56,071 bases of DNA, taken from the NCBI GenBank assembly GCA_016204695.1, contig JACQKD010000003.1:1-56071 (forward strand), given 5' to 3'. Under the pieces are notes generated by a model. The model searched no databases and was not told the DNA's origin. It saw only the letters and a program-made list of their open reading frames with translations. Source of the DNA: Candidatus Kaiserbacteria bacterium (GTDB lineage Bacteria; Patescibacteriota; Minisyncoccia; Phycocordibacterales; UBA918). Position numbers and translations under genes: made by a program. Below are positions 10,295 through 56,071 of the stretch, piece after piece. Position 1 is the first letter of the stretch. Every line of letters starts with the position of its first letter.

Positions 10295-10520
10295 ACGATG
10301 TACACCCGCATTCTCTCGCTCCTTACAGGAGCAGTACACCGTGCGGATATTTTTCTTCCTTACAGGAACTGTCCACTCATTGGATCTTTTGTTTCGACAT
10401 TCGTCTCACAAAAGCTCTCAACGAGTCTTGCGGCAGTATGCCATACTGCCTCACGCTTCGCTCCAAAACTATCTCGCACGGTCTTCCGAAGCTCCACGTA
10501 TTCGCTTCGGAACCTAGCAT
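10295..10520 (-). repeat. Orphan copy of the mosaic structured repeat family (minus sense), with a nested insert
   Basis: The minus strand reads GAAGACCGTGCGAGATAGTTTTGGAGCGAAGCG...AAAAATATCCGCACGGTGTACTGCTCCTGTAAGGAGCGAG. This is collinear with the Leu-UAG module at 27545-27620. It is interrupted by a block (10369-10432) that recurs at 33285-33345. Confidence 0.8.
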
Positions 10521-11568: not shown

Positions 11569-11650
11569 GCCCGGGTGGCGGAACTGGTATACGCGTACGA
11601 CTCAAAATCGTATGTCGCAAGGCATGTGGGTTCGATTCCCACCCCGGGCA
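11569..11650 (+). tRNA. tRNA-Leu (anticodon CAA), long variable arm, no encoded CCA
   Basis: Hand-folded. Acceptor GCCCGGG/CCCGGGC; anticodon stem TACGA/TCGTA with loop CTCAAAA; variable arm TGTCGCAAGGCAT; T arm GTGGG-TTCGATT-CCCAC. Confidence 0.9.
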
Positions 11651-11879
11651 CAGCAAAAGAGCGGAGTGATTTTGCTGTGCCCGGGAGGAAGCGCGGGGCG
11701 CTTCCGTGTGGGAATCGAAACCCGATTGAGCATTTTCTGTAGCACTTTGTGCGAACAGAAAATCCAATCGGGGTACTGCTCCTGTATACTTCGCTCTCTG
11801 GCACGGCACTCGAAGTTTGTGAAAGCAAAGCTTTCCCAACTTCTCGTTTGTACCAGTAAGGAGCGATCCCACCAGGACA
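11651..11879 (+). repeat. tRNA-Leu(CAA)-anchored pseudo-tRNA module
   Basis: TGTGCCCGGG is the complement of the tRNA 3' end. It is followed by hairpin ggaagcgc-gggg-cgcttcc, GT, GTGGGAATCGAAA, the long hairpin cccgattgag...caatcggg, GTACTG, a CTCCTGTA...TAAGGAG hairpin split by about 70 nt, and CGATCCCACC. Confidence 0.8.
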
Positions 11880-14309: not shown

Positions 14310-14445
14310 CGATGGCGTGGGAAGATCGAAAAGCGGAAAAAACAGTCTGGGGGACTGTTTTCGAGCTGGGGTCGCAAGCATTTAGTTTTTGCGAATACTT
14401 GGAGCAAAAACTAAATGGCTCGTGACCGATTCCCTCATTGCCCGC
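14310..14445 (+). repeat. tRNA-Trp-anchored module (type with GGAAAAAA-hairpin core)
   Basis: It reads GTGGGAAGATCGAAAAGCGGAAAAAACAGTCTGGGGGACTGTTTTCGAG...GGCTCGTGACCGATTCCCTCATTGCCCGC. The last 19 nt (14427-14445) are an exact copy of the tRNA-Trp end at 14246-14264. Confidence 0.8.
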
Positions 14446-16734: not shown

Positions 16735-16920
16735 GGTAGGATTCCACTCTTGCAGGATTAGTACAGGTTTCGTATCGCGCTCGTAAATTAATTGGGCAGG
16801 ATTCGAAACTTACAGTTTCAGTACAGGTTTCGTATCGTACTCGCCTCTGCTTCGCTCCGGCTCCGTGCGATATACTCAACCTCTTCGAATCCTGCACGAA
16901 AGCTTCGCTTTCTCCGGCGC
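16735..16920 (-). repeat. tRNA-Tyr-anchored module plus a decayed partial second copy
   Basis: The minus strand reads TGTGCGCCGGA, gaaagc-gaa-gctttc, GT, GCAGGATTCGAAG, AGGTTGAGTATATCGCACGGAGCCGGAGCGAAGCAGAGGCGAGTACGATACGAAACCTGTACTG, GAAACTGTAAGTTTC, GAATCCTGCCC. 16794-16807 is an exact copy of 16965-16978 in the tRNA. Confidence 0.8.
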
Positions 16921-16959
16921 ACATTTTAAAAACGCCCAGTTTGGGCGTTTTTAAAATGT
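16921..16959 (-). terminator. Perfect 18 bp palindromic hairpin immediately 3' of tRNA-Tyr (bidirectional terminator-like)
   Basis: The structure is acattttaaaaacgccca-gtt-tgggcgtttttaaaatgt. Confidence 0.6.
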
Positions 16960-17042
16960 GCGCCGGGCAGGATTCGAACCTGCGTAGCCCGTAGGGCGAC
17001 AGATTTACAGTCTGTTGCGATTGACCACTCCGCCACCGACGC
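16959..17042 (-). tRNA. tRNA-Tyr (anticodon GTA), long variable arm, no encoded CCA
   Basis: Hand-folded on the minus strand. Acceptor GCGTCGG/CCGGCGC (one G-U pair); anticodon stem ACAGA/TCTGT with loop CTGTAAA; T arm GCAGG-TTCGAAT-CCTGC. Confidence 0.88.
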
Positions 17043-17126: not shown

Positions 17127-17155
17127 CTTGACATTGGAGCTGATCTGTAGTATCT
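17127..17155 (+). promoter_or_regulatory. Sigma70-like promoter (TTGACA, 17 nt spacer, TATCTT)
   Basis: TTGACA lies at 17127-17132 and TATCTT at 17150-17155. This would give a roughly 230 nt leader ahead of the DEAD-box helicase gene. Confidence 0.45.
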
Positions 17156-17388
17156 TATGATCAACTTGAGATTCTCGTGTAGGGCTCTTGAGCTGCGAAC
17201 AGGCTGAAAATACAGATTGATTCGGTTATATACCTGCACACAAGACCCTAAGTGTGTTCAAAAATCCTCCAGATGCGAGGCGCTGAGGAGTGAAAAACTG
17301 AGGCGTACTTTGTTGTACGATGAAGTTTTGAACGACAAAAGCAACGAAGCAGATGGAGATTTTGGGACATACGTAAAATATACACTAC

Positions 17389-24799: not shown

Positions 24800-24871
24800 G
24801 GCCTGGTGGTGAAGAGGTAACACAGGAGTCTGCAAAACTCCCACGCGCGGGTTCGATTCCCGCCCAGGCCT
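24800..24871 (+). tRNA. tRNA-Cys (anticodon GCA), no encoded CCA
   Basis: Hand-folded. Acceptor GGCCTGG/CCAGGCC; anticodon stem GGAGT/ACTCC with loop CTGCAAA; T arm GCGGG-TTCGATT-CCCGC. Confidence 0.9.
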
Positions 24872-25330
24872 CACGAAGTGAACAGAGTGAACGAGTGGGG
24901 CCTGGAGCAAGTGCCCTACGGCACTTGCGTGCGGGAATCGAAGAGGTTGAGTATATCGCGCGGAGCCGGAGCGAAGCAGAGGCGAGCACGATACGAAACC
25001 TGTACTGATCCTGTAAGGATCGATCCCGCCCAGGCCTCAAAGAGAGCGTAGCGAACGTAGAGGATTGGGCGGGAATCGAAAGCCGGAAAAAAGATGCTGG
25101 GAGCATCTTTTTGAGGCGGGGATGAAAAGCAAACTGCTTTGCTTTTCATCCGATTTCGACCGAAGGGAGAAATGCGCCACTGTCGAGCGAAGCGAGGCGG
25201 GCGCAAGGAGGACGAGAGCGCTTAGTATAAATGTGAGCGGAGCGAAACATTTTACTTAGCGACTCGTGACCGATTCCTTACAGAAACCGTATACCTTGCG
25301 AAGCTCCAAGTATTCACTTCTCCCCACAAC
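24872..25330 (+). repeat. tRNA-Cys-anchored cassette: two modules plus an abutting inverted fragment
   Basis: Module 1 (about 24896-25039) ends in cccgcccaggcctca, an exact copy of 24859-24873. Module 2 (about 25066-25273) carries the 190 nt core that is also found at 27141-27329. 25274-25330 reads as a minus-sense fragment of the orphan repeat type. Confidence 0.85.
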
Positions 25331-25377: not shown

Positions 25378-26346
25378 TCAATCCTCGATCGCATCAACCG
25401 CATCGTCCGCCTTTTCCTCCGCTTCTTCGGCCTTATCTTCCGCTTCGTCAAAATCATCGTCATCAAACGCATCCTGTGCCTTTTCAAGGAGTTCCTGCGC
25501 GTCGGCGAGAATCTCCTCGGCCTCGTCGACATCTCTGCCGTCGCCATCCGCAGTGTTGACTTCGTCTTCCGCCTCGTCAATGGCATTCTGCGCGCTAGTA
25601 ATCGCTTCTTGTGCTTGATCCTCGTCCTCGTCTTCATCATCGCAATCATCGTCCTCATCGAGAGCGGAACATTCCTCATCCTCATCTTCGTCATCGCATT
25701 CATCAGTATCATCATTGTTGGCGTCCTCCCCATCATCATCCTCATCATCGTCGTCGTTACCCTCGTCCTCATCATCCTCTTCGTCATCGTCGTTTGCTTC
25801 ATCATCGCCATCCTCGTCATCGTCATCTTCCACACATTCCCCGTCTATCTCATGGCGAGCATCGTTTGCAATCTCTTTTGCTTCTTTTGCAAGCTCTTTT
25901 GCTGTGCCATAGTCCGCATCGTCAAACGCATCTTGAGCTTCTGTAAGCTTCGCCTTTGCATCGGCGATGAGACTCTCTGCATCACCGGTATCACGCCCGC
26001 CAATCTCTTCCGCGAGCGCCGTTTCGGCTTTATCTATCTCATTCTGCGCATTCGTGATGGCAGACGATGCGCTCTGCTTACTGCCTTTATTTGTCTCGTT
26101 CGCATTGTCGGCCCTTATCTTGTCCCAATCAACCTGCGGCCGCCACTCTTTCAAAAGCGCGATCAACTGCTCAAGGAGCGCCTCAAGCCGTGCGATTTTT
26201 ACCTCATTGGCCGTCTGCCCTGTCGTCTGCGCCGCGGCAATGCGGGGAAATGCAAAAGGTGCGAGGATGATGCCCGCCCCGAGCATTATCGTCAATAGCG
26301 CTACGACGATACGATTGGTAAAGAAGATTTTAAAACTTTGAATCAT
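25378..26346 (-). CDS. Membrane-anchored or secreted, extremely acidic repeat protein
   Basis: The ATG at 26346 gives MIQSFKIFFTNRIVVALLTIMLGAGIILAPFAFPRIAAA, a signal or anchor. Three helical repeats of the form A.xxLxxAQDAFDDxD(Y/F)xxA follow, surrounding a long Asp/Glu run with interspersed Cys. The opposite-strand 313 aa ORF is its antisense shadow. Confidence 0.6.
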   Translation of the reverse strand: MIQSFKIFFTNRIVVALLTIMLGAGIILAPFAFPRIAAAQTTGQTANEVKIARLEALLEQLIALLKEWRPQVDWDKIRADNANETNKGSKQSASSAITNAQNEIDKAETALAEEIGGRDTGDAESLIADAKAKLTEAQDAFDDADYGTAKELAKEAKEIANDARHEIDGECVEDDDDEDGDDEANDDDEEDDEDEGNDDDDEDDDGEDANNDDTDECDDEDEDEECSALDEDDDCDDEDEDEDQAQEAITSAQNAIDEAEDEVNTADGDGRDVDEAEEILADAQELLEKAQDAFDDDDFDEAEDKAEEAEEKADDAVDAIED

Positions 26347-26399
26347 ATGTTGTTTCTTGTGCGATCTATAATGAATAATCGCTTCCCAATAAACGGGCA

Positions 26400-26494
26400 A
26401 AACGTCCGTTCATTACCACAGTATACTCCGGTACCGCACTCCGACACCCGTCATTTTCCACTTTTTCCGCTTTTCGACTCCCGCGACCTTGAGC
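26400..26494 (-). repeat. Partial module downstream of tRNA-Leu(UAA)
   Basis: The minus strand reads GCGGGAGTCGAAAAGCGGAAAAAGTGG...GTATACTG. This has a T-stem-like 5' strand, TCGAAAAGCGGAAAAA as in the Trp module, and the RTACTG motif. No matching 3' frame was found. Confidence 0.45.
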
Positions 26495-26726: not shown

Positions 26727-26799
26727 CCGCCTGTAGCTCAGTTGGTAGAGCAGGGGACTCTTAATCCCAAGGTCGAAGGTTCAAATCCTTCCAGGCGGA
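26727..26799 (+). tRNA. tRNA-Lys (anticodon CTT), no encoded CCA
   Basis: Hand-folded. Acceptor CCGCCTG/CAGGCGG; D arm GCTC-AGTTGGTA-GAGC; anticodon loop CTCTTAA; T arm GAAGG-TTCAAAT-CCTTC. Confidence 0.9.
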
Positions 26800-27345
26800 C
26801 TTGGAACGGAGTGGAAAGTCCGCCTGGAGCGTGCGAACTGCTTCGCTCGCGTGGAGGATTTGAAGACCTCGAGTATATTTTTGAAAAGCTCTGCTTTGAA
26901 AAAATACGAAAGGTGTACCGTTCCTGTAAGGAAAGAACCCTTCCAGGCGGACACGGAGCGTAGCGGAGTGTCCGCCTGAGAAAGCGCGGGGCGCTTTCGT
27001 GAAGGGCTCGAAGCCCGATTGAGCATTTTCCGGAGCGTTTGACGCGACGGAAAATGCTCAATCGGGATACTGCTTCTGTAAGAAGCGAGCTCTTCCATGC
27101 GGACTTGAACGAAGTGAAAGGACGGCTGGAAGGGCTCGAAAGCCGGAAAAAAGATGCTGGAGCGTCTTTTGAGGTGGGGATGAAAAGCAAACTGCTTTGC
27201 TTTTCATCCGGTTTCGACCGAAGGGAGAAATGCGCCACTGTCGAGCGAAGCGAGACCGGCGCAAGGAGGCCGAGAGCGCTTAGTGAATGTGAGCGGAGCG
27301 AAACATTTTACTTAGCGACTCGTGACCGAGCCCTTCCATGCGGAC
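26800..27345 (+). repeat. tRNA-Lys-anchored cassette of three tandem modules
   Basis: The modules are at 26818-26952, 26970-27104 and about 27120-27345. Each ends in (c)cttcca(g/t)gcggac, a copy of the tRNA-Lys 3' end. The three inserts belong to three different shared families. Confidence 0.88.
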
Positions 27346-27390: not shown

Positions 27391-27473
27391 GGGCAAGTGG
27401 CGGAATTGGCTATACGCGCCAGTCTTAGGAACTGGTTCCGAAAGGATTGAGGGTTCGAGTCCCTCCTTGCCCA
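27391..27473 (+). tRNA. tRNA-Leu (anticodon TAG), long variable arm, no encoded CCA
   Basis: Hand-folded. Acceptor GGGCAAG/CTTGCCC; anticodon stem CCAGT/ACTGG with loop CTTAGGA; T arm GAGGG-TTCGAGT-CCCTC. Confidence 0.9.
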
Positions 27474-27835
27474 CAGATTTGAACACAGTGAAAAGCTGTG
27501 GGGGAATGAAGCACATCTTTTGCGAAGCAAAAGATGTAGGACTCGAAGACCGTGCGAGATAGTTTGGAGCGCGAAGCGCGAACAAAATATCCACACGGTG
27601 TACTGAACATGTAATGTTCGAGTCCCTCCTTGCCCACAAAATAAGGAGAAAAGGCAAAGCGTTTTCGACTATATTTTGTGAGACAAGAAGGGACGAGAAC
27701 GGCGGAGGCGGTACACAAGACGACGAGCTTGCGAGAAGTGCTTGTCGCCGAGCCGTGACCCGCGGCGCTTATGAGCGAAGTGCAATGAAGCGAATTAGTG
27801 ACCGTCAGGTCGAGTCCTCTCGTCTCCACCAAACC
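27474..27835 (+). repeat. tRNA-Leu(UAG)-anchored cassette (one intact module, one diverged)
   Basis: The module at 27497-27638 ends in a perfect 20 nt copy (27619-27638) of 27456-27475. A second, diverged unit ends ...GTGACCGTCAGGTCGAGTCCTCTCGTCTCCACC. Confidence 0.8.
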
Positions 27836-33254: not shown

Positions 33255-33420
33255 ATACCTCGACCTCGCCGCTCCCTACAGGAGCTGTCCACTCATTGGA
33301 TCTTTTGTTTCGCTCCGCTCACAAAAGCTCTCAATGAGTCTTGCGAAGCTCCAAGTATTCGCTTCTCACGCAAAGCGGCCGGCGGGTGGTGGACAGGAAA
33401 TTGCAAGGGTCTCGATAAGA
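33255..33420 (-). repeat. Orphan copy of the mosaic repeat family (minus sense)
   Basis: The minus strand reads GAGAAGCGAATACTTGGAGCTTCGCAAGACTCATTGAGAGCTTTTGTGAGCGGAGCGAAACAAAAGATCCAATGAGTGGACAGCTCCTGTAGGGAGC. 33285-33345 matches 10369-10432. Confidence 0.75.
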
Positions 33421-44090: not shown

Positions 44091-44094
44091 ATTA

Positions 44095-44290
44095 CGTCCC
44101 AAAATCTTCATCTGCTTTGTCGCCTTCGTCGCTCGAACCCTACAGGTTCTGTATACCTTGCGGATATTTTCGTTCGCTTCGCTCCGAAACTATCTCGCAA
44201 GGTCTTGCGAAAGCGCCCCGCGCTTTCTCTCCCTCATCGTATTATGTATACGTCTCGAGTTCTCGCTCCTCGGCTTCGCGCATCTGAAGG
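44095..44290 (-). repeat. Orphan complete module of the mosaic repeat family between ftsA and ftsZ (minus sense)
   Basis: The minus strand reads gaaagcgc-gggg-cgctttc, GCAAGA, CCTTGCGAGATAGTTTCGGAGCGAAGCGAACGAAAATATCCGCAAGG, TATACAG, AACCTGTAGGGTT, CGAG. There is no tRNA-matching frame. Confidence 0.75.
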
Positions 44291-44446
44291 ATTTTTGAAC
44301 GCAATCTTTTGCGAGATTTTTGCAACATATATCTTTACTTGGCAAACACACGCAAGAGCGTATCTGTCAATCTCGTGACAGATTTTTATATACCTGTATG
44401 ATAGTGGCTAACGGATGTTTAACCGGAGGTATCCCGATATACACAT

Positions 44447-55963: not shown

Positions 55964-56071
55964 CAAGAATAACGGAGCAAATGCGGAGCATTTGTGGAGT
56001 ATATTCTTGGAGTGCCTACCGGGATGAGAAAGCCGGAGGCGGTATACAAGACGAGCGGAACGAAGTGGAGC
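55964..56071 (+). repeat. Start of a tRNA-His-anchored module (cut by the window end)
   Basis: GGAGTG is followed by CCTACCGGGA, the complement of tRNA-His TCCCGGTAGG. GCCGGAGGCGGTATACAAGACGAGCGGAACGAAGTGGAGC then matches the diverged unit at about 27700-27745. Confidence 0.6.

What the first reader, a model, noticed from the sequence alone, without database searches (positions are those of the whole stretch)
25007..25021. Conserved 7-nt loop CTGTAAG on stems that covary: an anticodon-loop look-alike present in at least 10 copies
The short hairpin just before the 3' frame keeps its loop while the stem changes in a compensatory way:
- gatc-CTGTAAG-gatc (25007-25021)
- ttc-CTGTAAG-gaa (26921-26933)
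- gctt-CTGTAAG-aagc (27072-27086)
- gaac-ATGTAAT-gttc (27605-27619)
- gaaa-CTGTAAG-tttc (minus, 16805-16819)
- gctc-CTGTAAG-gagc (minus, 10318-10332)
- ttc-CTGTAAG-gaa (minus, 10355-10367)
- gctc-CTGTAGG-gagc (minus, 33271-33285)
- gaac-CTGTAGG-gttc (minus, 44135-44149)

The loop obeys the canonical anticodon-loop rule (pyrimidine-32, U33, three nucleotides, purine-37) with anticodon GUA (Tyr). Its reverse complement CTTACAG also obeys the rule (UAC). A conserved loop on variable paired stems argues for selection on a folded nucleic acid, either RNA or ssDNA, rather than repeat decay.
Basis: seen in the sequence. Interest (0 to 1): 0.7.

Follow-up and report, generated by a model that had tools for sequence, protein, structure and literature searches.

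The report
tRNA-flank mobile element's end hairpin
The reported hairpin is real, but it is not an anticodon-loop mimic: it is the conserved end hairpin (a GTA three-base loop) of an apparently undescribed family of small mobile non-coding elements that sit just after tRNA genes across the Patescibacteria, each bracketed by an inverted and a direct copy of that tRNA's 3' half.

Summary
All nine hairpins are at the stated coordinates: 10 in the window against 0.4 in shuffles.

- **Loop.** The "7-nt loop" is two more base pairs closing an invariant GTA triloop. Positions 1:7 are CG, AU, GC or UA. Positions 2:6 are UA, CG or UG. This rules out the anticodon-loop reading.
- **What it belongs to.** The hairpin ends an ~88-nt structured core: TCGAA, a long hairpin, GUAC, then this hairpin, then GA. 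The window holds nine full copies.
- **Distribution.** Nearly all are Patescibacteria MAGs, and 115 of 123 matches have complementary stems.
- **Context.** Copies lie about 100-140 nt downstream of tRNA genes of 32 anticodon types.
- **Layout.** tRNA, trailer, reverse complement of that tRNA's T-loop, T-stem and acceptor 3' strand, core, then a direct copy of the same segment.
- **Mobility.** Syntenic clusters without elements, exact tandem duplications and fresh insertions between 98%-identical genomes show that the elements move.
- **Enzyme.** No transposase or integrase gene lies nearby.
- **Known families.** No match in Rfam, the phage or plasmid collections, or the papers searched.
- **Open questions.** Whether the folded strand is ssDNA or RNA, and which enzyme acts on it.

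The parts
25007..25021 (+). Reported hairpin H3 of the tRNA-Cys unit: stem GATC/GATC, inner pairs C:G and T:A, GTA triloop at 25013-25015
24929..25025 (+). Type-A core of the Cys unit (TCGAA, P1/H2 long hairpin, TGTACTG, H3, CGA)
   Evidence: covariance-model hit, 61.5 bits; 90% identical to the Tyr copy
24800..24872 (+). tRNA-Cys(GCA), the host gene. T-loop 24852-24858, T-stem 3' strand 24859-24863, acceptor 3' strand 24864-24870, discriminator 24871; no encoded CCA
24895..24942 (+). A': reverse complement of the tRNA-Cys 3' half. It consists of GTG+G+GGCCTGG (24895-24905), the inserted hairpin H1 with its AG..CGT flanks (24906-24930), and GCGGGAATCGAA (24931-24942), which complements the T-loop and T-stem
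25022..25039 (+). A copy: direct repeat of tRNA-Cys from G57 to the discriminator +2 (GA-TCCCGC-CCAGGCC-T-CA), one T shorter in the T-loop part
26851..26938 (+). Type-A core, first unit after tRNA-Lys(CTT) at 26727-26800; H3 at 26921-26933
26999..27090 (+). Type-A core, second (older) tandem unit after tRNA-Lys; H3 at 27072-27086; followed by a diverged A copy
27534..27623 (+). Type-A core after tRNA-Leu(TAG) at 27391-27474; H3 at 27605-27619 with the compensatory ATGTAAT variant
16801..16897 (-). Type-A core after tRNA-Tyr (16958-17042, minus strand); H3 at 16805-16819. A decayed, truncated older unit lies at 16741-16782
11706..11815 (+). Degenerate type-A core after tRNA-Leu(CAA) at 11569-11651, preceded by a perfect A-loop-A' hairpin
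10314..10510 (-). Composite copy downstream of parB. An outer core (H3 at 10318-10332) carries a complete inner unit (H1, core, H3 at 10355-10367) inserted in the tip of its long hairpin
33267..33365 (-). Copy downstream of gyrA, not next to a tRNA; H1 carries a GAATACTTGGA loop; H3 at 33271-33285 is the CTGTAGG variant
44131..44249 (-). Copy in the ftsA-ftsZ spacer, antisense to both genes; H3 at 44135-44149. The paralogous sequence at 17253-17371 (+) lacks these ~112 nt
25273..25326 (-). Partial copy (H1-like hairpin plus H3, no long hairpin) downstream of the acidic-protein gene; it abuts the end of a type-B element on the opposite strand
25076..25272 (+). Type-B core, which ends ..CTCGTGACC|GA. 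This second core family uses the same A'/A bracket. Further copies at 27136-27330 and 14320-14427 (after tRNA-Trp)
   Evidence: (D2, D4, D14)

Best explanation
**What it is.** The hairpin is the right-end hairpin of a small, non-autonomous mobile element that is widespread in Patescibacteria. The movable part is about 70-110 nt, laid out as follows:
- (T)GAG, hairpin H1, CG(T/C);
- AAGA(C/G)(C/G), then a long hairpin (P1/H2) whose tip carries tandem G.A pairs and a GNA triloop;
- (G)UAC-N-G;
- H3, a 6-bp stem closing a GUA triloop;
- (C)GA.

**Where it sits.** Beside tRNA genes the element joins T-loop-derived TCGA on both sides. To its left lies a reverse-complement copy (A') of the host tRNA's T-loop, T-stem 3' strand, acceptor 3' strand and trailer. 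A' can pair with the tRNA gene's own 3' half across the trailer. To its right lies a direct copy (A) that runs from G57 to the discriminator.

**How I think it works.**
- A trans-encoded enzyme recognises the element as a folded single strand, most likely ssDNA, possibly RNA.
- H3's invariant GUA triloop and the GUAC just before it would be the sequence-specific contacts at the right-end junction.
- The stems need only pair, which is why they covary.
- New copies enter exposed G|A steps in hairpin loops or tips: the T-loop, the H1 loop and the H2 tip.
- At tRNA genes, only products that keep an intact tRNA survive.
- The direct copy A is the duplicated footprint.
- A' arises by fold-back copying at the trailer hairpin, or is carried as a folded attachment hairpin.

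**Shown.** The structure and its covariation, strand specificity, mobility, and the T-loop junctions with the A/A' bracket.

**Inferred.** ssDNA rather than RNA, the identity of the enzyme, and how A' is made.
For: **Structure**
- P1 and H3 covary in copies collected independently of the search pattern (91.6% paired against 61%, 0/500 shuffles).
- GTA, AC and G are 71-72 of 72 conserved.

**Strand**
- Purine motifs occur on the sense strand only.
- G.T wobble outnumbers A.C 19 to 8 in the clean pairs.

**Distribution**
- 120 stretches in genome contigs, nearly all Patescibacteria.
- Of 123 matches, 86 lie 13-457 nt downstream of a same-strand tRNA, with 32 anticodon types.

**Bracket**
- A' matches the unit's own tRNA at 11 or more of 12 positions in 54 of 82 units, against 1 of 82 when tRNAs are swapped.
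- The A copy matches at 11 or more of 12 in 44 of 82, against 0.
- A' is present after 94 of 157 tRNAs, against 5 of 151 in upstream controls.
- The direct repeat usually ends at the discriminator, give or take 2 nt.

**Mobility**
- Syntenic Cys-Leu-Lys-Leu clusters without elements exist, for example L131 and L130.
- L167 differs from L170 by an exact 162-nt tandem duplication.
- L161 differs from L160 (97.7% identical) by a 72-84-nt unit inserted in an H1 loop and by 52 nt inserted at TCG|AA.
- The window holds a nested copy downstream of parB and a filled/empty paralogue pair.
- Copies at different tRNAs in one genome are 85-90% identical, and the homology starts at TCGAA and ends at TTCGA.

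**No enzyme in cis**
- All window genes scanned against Pfam, those that matched a family are housekeeping genes.

**A':downstream-A pairing is not maintained**
- Where the two copies differ, A' matches the tRNA better in 18 units and the downstream copy better in 3.
Against: - No transposase, HUH, recombinase or RT gene was found in the window or in the cargo islets. I could not search whole genomes for one.
- The exact conservation of about 17 nt across very divergent lineages (IF-2 only 50-70% identical) is more typical of a functional RNA than of a selfish repeat.
- In the window the units have no terminator between themselves and the tRNA, so they should be co-transcribed. An RNA role is therefore open.
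- The route by which A' acquires the sequence of each of more than 30 different tRNAs is not demonstrated. No bare A'-A palindrome intermediate was found.
- Orientation in the window follows the tRNA or upstream gene. It shows no obvious replication-strand bias, which a strict lagging-strand ssDNA transposon would predict.
- One insertion target alignment (ftsA-ftsZ spacer) rests on diverged paralogues.
Confidence: 0.45

Rival explanations
1. A functional non-coding RNA linked to tRNAs. The unit is co-transcribed with the tRNA and released by RNase Z and RNase P. It folds so that A' and the downstream A form an acceptor/T-stem 'top half' mimic of the neighbouring tRNA. H1 takes the place of the D and anticodon arms, and the core (P1/H2 plus H3) fills an expanded T-loop. 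H3's GUA triloop and the GAAR and GUACU junction strands would form a protein- or RNA-binding core. Mobility would be secondary, as with SINEs.
For: - Deep sequence and structure conservation.
- Sense-strand-only motifs, including tandem G.A tips that resemble K-loops.
- No terminator between the tRNA and the unit in the window.
- The direct copy ends at the discriminator, where RNase Z would cut.
- The predicted fold is a three-way junction with conserved junction strands; z = -6.9.
- Three of the four window copies away from tRNAs are sense and 3' of genes.
Against: - In many genomes a strong terminator lies between the tRNA and the unit.
- A' tracks the upstream tRNA, not its supposed partner the downstream A (18 against 3).
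- The downstream A is often decayed: only 38 of 82 are perfect.
- Copy number varies, copies nest inside one another, and one is antisense in the ftsA-ftsZ spacer.
- The element-specific hairpin tips are GNA triloops, which I know best as a stable DNA hairpin motif (my knowledge).
- No Rfam family matches.
Confidence: 0.3
2. A folded attachment site for integration at tRNA genes, like the CTX-phage attP(+) or an integron attC. On this view the A-trailer-A' hairpin in ssDNA mimics the duplex 3' half of the tRNA gene. A host recombinase would exchange strands in the T-loop. That would insert [A-trailer-A'-core-H3], with or without cargo genes, and displace the old 3' half downstream. H3 and the long hairpin would be accessory or replication signals.
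For: - The A/A' inverted repeat is interrupted by an extra-helical hairpin, H1.
- Direct repeats run from the T-loop to the tRNA end, as for classical tRNA-integrating elements.
- Arrays are polar, with the more diverged A copies distal.
- Displaced units keep matched A/A' pairs.
- Small cargo islets lie between the tRNA and a distal unit in L078, L100 and L104. In L104 a 37-nt repeat ends at the foot of H1.
- The window genome encodes DprA and type IV pilin-like proteins, which fits ssDNA uptake.
Against: - Each element would have to be specific for one tRNA, yet near-identical cores sit at different tRNAs in one genome.
- No integrase lies in or near units or islets.
- No free copy was found in viral contigs, phage records or plasmid records.
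- Copies without A/A' insert elsewhere.
Confidence: 0.12
3. One reading: an anticodon stem-loop mimic (Tyr, GUA) recognised by tRNA-modifying enzymes, TyrRS or anticodon nucleases.
For: - The commonest form, CUGUAAG, resembles the window tRNA-Tyr loop CUGUAAA.
- UGU is the motif I know as the recognition element of tRNA-guanine transglycosylase (my knowledge).
Against: - Loop positions 1:7 and 2:6 covary as Watson-Crick pairs.
- 'U33' is C in 7 of 72 copies, and 'purine 37' changes with it.
- Folding programs close the loop to three bases.
Confidence: 0.02

Closest known systems
REP/BIME mosaics with their RAYT (TnpA-REP) enzyme; also the hairpin-ended non-autonomous derivatives (PATEs) of IS200/IS605
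   Same: - Short, non-coding, hairpin-forming repeats in intergenic 3' regions.
- Stems covary around a few fixed bases.
- The fold is strand-specific, as expected for recognition as a single strand.
- Modules combine into mosaics and insert into one another.
- The enzyme, if any, is encoded elsewhere.
   Different: - No RAYT or Y1 transposase gene was seen (window only).
- The fixed bases sit in a triloop, not in a GTAG at the stem foot.
- Copies are tied to tRNA genes.
- Copies are bracketed by an inverted and a direct copy of the host tRNA's 3' half. I know of no REP or PATE with that feature.
Integrative elements that target the T-loop sublocation of tRNA genes (tyrosine integrases)
   Same: - The insertion is flanked by a direct repeat running from the T-loop to the 3' end of the tRNA, so the gene stays intact.
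- Tandem arrays and small cargo islets occur at the same site.
   Different: - The units are about 150 nt with no integrase.
- One core family serves more than 30 different tRNAs.
- There is an additional inverted copy of the tRNA 3' half.
Folded single-strand recombination sites: integron attC and CTX-phage attP(+)
   Same: - Function would depend on a hairpin in one strand.
- Structure is conserved while stem sequences vary.
- There are extra-helical features (H1).
- Arrays are polar.
   Different: - No GTTRRRY/RYYYAAC boxes, no IntI and no dif-like site.
- The stem is a copy of a tRNA gene segment.
Tandem inversion duplications formed by snap-back template switching at quasi-palindromes (described in Salmonella; my knowledge)
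   Same: Direct-inverted-direct order (A, A', A), with the first junction centred on a hairpin (the trailer or terminator).
   Different: - Here the triplicated piece is only about 20 nt.
- It is always the same tRNA segment.
- It always carries a conserved core at the second junction.
- It recurs in hundreds of independent loci.
GNA-triloop mini-hairpins such as d(GCGAAGC) (my knowledge)
   Same: - H3 closes on G-T-A.
- Other tips of the element are C-GAA-G, C-GTA-G and C-GGA-G.
- These motifs occur on one strand only.
   Different: Those are generic stability motifs, not a family of elements. Their presence does not settle DNA against RNA.

Membership tests
tRNA anticodon stem-loop (mimic) | Seven unpaired loop bases with invariant U33 and a purine at 37 | tested here: not met
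   Positions 1:7 are CG 37, AU 16, GC 10, UA 5. Positions 2:6 are UA 58, CG 7, UG 4. The variants ATGTAAT, TCGTAGA and GTGTAAC occur.
tRNA / tRNA-like gene | Cloverleaf recognised by ARAGORN or the Rfam tRNA model | tested here: not met
   Only the 8 true tRNAs are called. The units are not, even at E up to 10.
Any Rfam 15 family, including hammerhead, twister, pistol, hatchet, HDV-like, HEARO and IS605-orfB RNAs | Covariance-model match | tested here: not met
   No match over the units at the gathering threshold or at E up to 10.
REP/BIME | High-copy intergenic imperfect palindromes with a few fixed bases, forming mosaics | tested here: met
   Nine full copies in 56 kb, nested and tandem arrangements, covarying stems.
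REP/BIME | A cognate single-copy RAYT (Y1 HUH) gene in the genome | not testable with these tools
   None in the window. Whole genomes could not be scanned.
IS200/IS605-type non-autonomous elements (PATEs) | Subterminal hairpins at both ends, no terminal inverted repeats, no target duplication, insertion 3' of a fixed 4-5-nt site | tested here: inconclusive
   Hairpins lie near both ends (H1, H3). Insertions occur at G|A in GGG|AG, TCG|AA and GCG|AA. At tRNAs, however, an 18-23-nt direct repeat flanks the insert.
Classical MITE | Terminal inverted repeats and a fixed-length target-site duplication | tested here: not met
   Only the 5-6-bp TCGAA/TTCGA termini are inverted. The flanking repeat is the tRNA 3' half, not a fixed short duplication.
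tRNA-targeting integrative element | Direct repeat of the tRNA 3' part flanking the insert | tested here: met
   The A copy matches at 11 or more of 12 positions in 44 of 82 units, against 0 of 82 with swapped tRNAs.
tRNA-targeting integrative element | Integrase gene inside the element | tested here: not met
   Units are about 150 nt. The islets in L078, L100 and L104 carry no integrase.
Integron attC | R''/L''-L'/R' boxes (RYYYAAC .. GTTRRRY) next to cassette ORFs and an intI gene | tested here: not met
   The boxes are absent from the consensus, and there is no IntI in the window.
TIGR arrays (TIGR-Tas) | Alternating 8-12-nt repeats with 9-nt dual spacers, next to a Nop-domain Tas gene (PMC12045711) | tested here: not met
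   The unit is about 150 nt with long hairpins and no adjacent Tas gene.

The most novel reading that the evidence does not exclude
A previously unrecognised kind of hairpin-loop-targeting element, specific to Patescibacteria, that retargets itself. Wherever its core lands in or beside a tRNA T-loop, it ends up with a templated antisense copy and a sense copy of that tRNA's T-loop-to-discriminator segment. The result is either a self-made attachment or guide hairpin, or a tRNA top-half mimic processed by RNase P and RNase Z. This would be a new way for a mobile element to live inside essential single-copy tRNA genes of minimal genomes. It could also be a new class of structured RNA or ssDNA with a GUA-triloop recognition hairpin.
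Probability: 0.3. Interest if true: 0.9.

Novelty: new variant of a known kind. Interest (0 to 1): 0.72.

Why it matters
- **Scale.** Patescibacteria have tiny genomes and single-copy tRNA genes. Even so, almost half of the tRNA genes sampled here carry these modules (171 of 378 have A'), and 7 of the 8 in the window do.
- **What follows if they are mobile elements.** They would reveal a route for colonising essential genes without killing them. They would also point to an unidentified structure-specific enzyme.
- **What follows if they are RNAs.** They would be an abundant family of tRNA-linked structured RNAs, unknown to Rfam, in a major uncultivated lineage.
- **Genome dynamics.** Either way, they help explain why tRNA clusters in these genomes are hot spots of inversion, tandem duplication and small gene-cassette gain.
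- **Practical use.** They give a sequence tag (TGTACTG-nnn-CTGTAAG-nnn-CGA) that is almost diagnostic for the group.

Tried and rejected
- **TnpB/IscB guide RNA ending in a guide sequence.** The upstream ORFs are ParB, GyrA, FtsZ and an acidic protein, not TnpB.
- **Known RNA families and ribozymes.** Nothing in Rfam, even at E up to 10.
- **Hammerhead-like three-way junction.** The order and sequence of the junction strands do not fit.
- **Group II intron domains V/VI, box C/D or K-turn, and TIGR arrays.** The resemblances are partial only.
- **Retroviral-type primer-binding site copied from mature tRNA.** A' complements the gene's trailer, not CCA.
- **A' as a direct copy of the tRNA 5' strands.** Its T-loop and trailer parts are reverse complements.
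- **tRNA-like minihelix with A' paired to the downstream A.** A' does not track the downstream copy.
- **Bare A'-A palindromes as a pre-insertion scaffold.** None found.
- **Phage or plasmid origin.** No hits in IMG/VR, INPHARED or PLSDB.
- **Exact-protein look-ups for strain-level relatives of the window.** Both failed.
- **Literature.** Five full-text searches found no description.
- **G.T against A.C counts in raw alignments.** Confounded by bulges. Only the clean pairs were used.
Full report
**1. The observation**

A scan for a 3-bp perfect stem around [C/A]TGTA[A/G][G/T] finds 10 in the window. Three hundred dinucleotide-preserving shuffles give 0.41 on average and at most 3. The tenth, at 17142-17154, lies in the tRNA-Tyr promoter region without the element context and is probably chance.

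**2. What the hairpin belongs to**

The flanks of the hairpins align. Upstream lies a long hairpin enclosed by a covarying stem, P1. In the window its strands read AGGTT/AACCT, ACCT/AGGT, CCCGA/TCGGG, CCGTG/CACGG, CCTTG/CAAGG and CTCAT/ATGAG. Next comes (G)TAC-N-G, then the reported hairpin H3, then (C)GA.

A covariance model built from 99 copies finds nine full and two partial copies in the 56-kb window. Seven of the eight tRNA genes are followed by a unit of this or a sister type:
- Cys, Lys (two tandem units), Leu-TAG, Tyr and Leu-CAA carry type A.
- Trp carries type B, and type B also follows the Cys and Lys arrays.
- His carries a third type.

Other copies lie downstream of parB (one nested in another), downstream of gyrA, downstream of an acidic-protein gene, and antisense in the ftsA-ftsZ spacer.

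**3. The tRNA bracket**

Right after H3 comes GA and then a copy of the upstream tRNA's T-stem 3' strand, acceptor 3' strand and discriminator. I call this copy A. For tRNA-Cys it is 25022-25039.

Shortly after the tRNA lies the reverse complement, A', of the tRNA's trailer, acceptor 3' strand, T-stem 3' strand and T-loop. In type A units a hairpin H1 of about 25 nt, flanked by GAG and CGT, is inserted exactly at the acceptor/T-stem junction.

A' is a true reverse complement. It follows the T-loop (ATTTGAA for TTCAAAT, AATCGAA for TTCGATT), and the complementarity continues into the trailer.

**4. Distribution**

By record title nearly all are Patescibacteria MAGs: Paceibacterota/Parcubacteria, Kaiser-, Nomura-, Wolfe- and Taylorbacteria, 'Saccharibacteria' and Minisyncoccia. 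One Anaerolineae hit looks random.

By my own calculation, a pattern of about 33 bits would give on the order of 100 random hits spread over all phyla. The restriction to one group is therefore itself strong evidence.

- Of 123 matches, 115 have perfectly complementary NNN.
- Of 123, 86 lie 13-457 nt (mode about 105-145) downstream of a same-strand tRNA, with 32 anticodon types. Most of the rest sit at locus edges.
- A' matches the unit's own tRNA at 11 or more of 12 positions in 54 of 82 units, against 1 of 82 when tRNAs are swapped.
- The A copy matches at 11 or more of 12 in 44 of 82, against 0.
- Over all tRNAs in these loci, A' is found downstream of 94 of 157, against 5 of 151 in the upstream control.
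- The direct repeat typically stops at the discriminator, give or take 2 nt.

The window itself is very probably a Patescibacteria genome. This is an inference from four things: tRNA genes without CCA, pilin-like and DprA genes, IF-2 62-70% identical to the best metagenome relatives, and a shared tRNA-cluster synteny.

**5. The loop is a triloop**

RNAalifold pairs C:G and U:A inside the '7-nt loop'. A regex scan of all loci shows these variants in full element context: CTGTAAG (132), ATGTAAT (16), TCGTAGA (10), CTGTAGG (5) and GTGTAAC (5).

In 72 distinct copies collected from IF-2-syntenic loci, independently of the pattern:
- position 1:7 is CG 37, AU 16, GC 10, UA 5;
- position 2:6 is UA 58, CG 7, UG 4, GC 1;
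- GTA is 71-72 of 72;
- the preceding AC and G are 71 of 72.

The whole structure is 91.6% paired against 61.1% in shuffles. No shuffle of 500 reaches the observed percentage paired or covariation score. Sliding the partners drops pairing to 30-45%. That alignment is model-fitted, but searches do not depend on the model.

The anticodon-loop reading is therefore refuted. The hairpin is a 6-bp stem on a GUA triloop.

**6. One strand folds**

Within the units:
- GCGNAGC (a C-GNA-G mini-hairpin) occurs 16 times on the tRNA-sense strand and never on the other.
- TGAG..CGAA tips (tandem G.A) occur 39 against 1.
- In cleanly aligned pairs, G.T wobble outnumbers A.C 19 to 8.

The tRNA-Cys region with its unit folds far better than shuffles as RNA (z = -6.9) and as DNA (z = -6.4). 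These data fix the strand. They do not decide between RNA and ssDNA.

**7. The units are mobile insertions**

The IF-2/RbfA/tRNA-Cys-Leu-Lys-Leu neighbourhood is syntenic in 80 metagenome loci.
- Some clusters are compact and free of elements (L131, L130, L121, L178).
- Others carry one to five units.
- Individual tRNA genes flip orientation between genomes.

Further evidence of movement:
- L167 and L170 are identical except for an exact 162-nt tandem duplication of a unit.
- L161 and L160 are 97.7% identical. They differ by a 72-84-nt unit [(T)GAG-H1-TGC-AAGAGG-P1/H2-TGTACC-H3] inserted in the loop CTGGG|AG of a resident H1, and by a 52-nt insert at TCG|AA.
- The same unit composition is seen in the window's nested parB copy, inserted in the tip GCG|AA of a long hairpin.
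- It is seen again in the ftsA-ftsZ spacer, whose paralogue at 17253-17371 lacks about 112 nt.
- Copies at different tRNAs in one genome are 85-90% identical (window Cys/Tyr, L142 Leu/Lys, L166 Cys/Leu). The homology begins at TCGAA and ends at TTCGA, the two T-loop-derived junctions.
- Orthologous copies in different species are also about 87% identical. So there is both vertical inheritance and spread within a genome.

**8. Cargo and arrays**

- In L078 a 1.7-kb islet sits between the tRNA and the first A copy.
- In L104 three genes are inserted right after H1's CGT, with a 37-nt repeat.
- In L100 two genes lie between two units.
- None of these islets encodes an integrase.
- In the window's Lys array the distal A copies are the more diverged.

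**9. No enzyme in cis**

Of the window ORFs of about 180 aa or more that I scanned against Pfam, those that matched a family are housekeeping genes (for example SerRS, DprA, TopA, RelA/SpoT, ClpB, IF-2, GyrA, S1, Pth, FtsA/Z, ATP synthase). Several ORFs matched no Pfam family.

The element is absent from IMG/VR, INPHARED phage records and PLSDB plasmid records. It is absent from Rfam. The literature searches found no description. The closest paper, on TIGR-Tas, describes a different architecture.

**10. Interpretation**

Shown:
- a conserved, strand-specific, covarying structure;
- mobility;
- junctions at T-loop TCGA;
- the A/A' bracket.

The downstream A behaves like a decaying footprint: only 38 of 82 copies are perfect. 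A' does not co-vary with it. Where the two differ, A' matches the tRNA in 18 units and the downstream copy in 3. This argues against a conserved A':A(downstream) helix and so weakens the tRNA-mimic RNA model.

The coherent module is A-trailer-A', which includes part of the tRNA gene itself. As RNA, that pairing would compete with tRNA folding. In many genomes a terminator sits inside it.

I therefore favour a DNA-level (single-strand) element recognised by a trans-acting enzyme, with H3 as its right-end recognition hairpin. A' would be produced by fold-back copying at the trailer hairpin or carried as a folded attachment hairpin. This mechanism is inferred, not shown.

Four things keep the RNA alternative alive at about 0.3:
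- the deep sequence conservation;
- co-transcription in the window;
- the K-loop-like tips;
- the end of the repeat at the RNase Z site.

**11. Novelty**

In kind, this is a hairpin-based non-autonomous repeat at tRNA genes, related in logic to REP/PATE elements and to tRNA-integrating islands. I found no precedent for three features:
- the inverted-plus-direct copy of the host tRNA's 3' half;
- one core serving more than 30 tRNAs;
- restriction to Patescibacteria.

Noticed in passing
window 25076-25272, 27136-27330, 14320-14427 (+); start of a third type at 56011-56071 and 27690-27723: At least two further core families use the same A'/A bracket. Type B starts AGCCGG plus an A6-stem-T5 hairpin and ends CTCGTGACC|GA. 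A third type starts AGCCGGAGGCGGTAYACAAGACGA. In other genomes another variant ends GTACC-YGC-CGA-YGTAG-TCG-GC-GA, again with a GTA triloop.
   Followed up: partly
L121-L200 (syntenic IF-2/RbfA/tRNA clusters): The four tRNA genes Cys, Leu-TAA, Lys-CTT and Leu-TAG keep their neighbourhood. However, each flips strand and changes order between related genomes, and a Leu-CAG gene comes and goes. In L170, what looks like the 3' half of a lost Leu tRNA remains fused behind a unit.
   Followed up: partly
L078:2740-4430, L104:4230-7400, L100:4410-5700: Small accessory-gene islets of 1-3 genes sit between a tRNA and a distal element or A copy, without any integrase. The genes include an IucA/IucC-like protein, hydrolases, DUF6671, a zinc-ribbon protein and a HAD-like protein. 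In L104 the islet is flanked by a 37-nt repeat that ends at the foot of hairpin H1.
   Followed up: partly
many loci, e.g. L020, L025, L036, L047, L100 (after ..CGA): In many copies a 14-nt mini-hairpin is inserted between the GA and the T-stem part of the A copy. It reads TAAGCGTACTCGCGG, and its 3-bp stem covaries (gcg/cgc, atg/cat, gtg/cac, acg/cgt) around TACT or TAAT.
   Followed up: no
window 25378-26400 (-): A 340-aa ORF with a long, highly acidic, repetitive D/E-rich region. The DNA shows 16 overlapping copies of a 46-nt motif. Its only Pfam signal is a weak DUF4398 hit.
   Followed up: no
window 17253-17371 (+) and 44093-44303 (-): The leader of the DEAD-box helicase gene and the ftsA-ftsZ spacer share a paralogous ~120-nt sequence in opposite orientations. 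It begins with a decayed tRNA-Lys-like T-arm/acceptor remnant (GTTCAAAAATCCTCCAGATGCG).
   Followed up: partly
window, all 8 tRNA genes; L001-L120: The tRNA genes of this genome, and most tRNA genes in the related MAGs, do not encode the 3' CCA. Trailers in other genomes are symmetric A-run/stem/T-run hairpins. In the window they are mostly short loops with a repeated GAACGGAGYGAA-type motif.
   Followed up: no
L058:6333-6647 (-), L018:6967-7192 (-), L015:7213-7607 (-): Group I introns lie just upstream of an element in L058 (probably inside a tRNA gene that ARAGORN missed) and also in L018. A tmRNA gene lies about 700 nt upstream of an element in L015.
   Followed up: no
window 17142-17154 (+): A tenth hairpin, GAT-CTGTAGT-ATC, lies in the region upstream of tRNA-Tyr. 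It has no GTAC or core context and is probably a chance match.
   Followed up: yes
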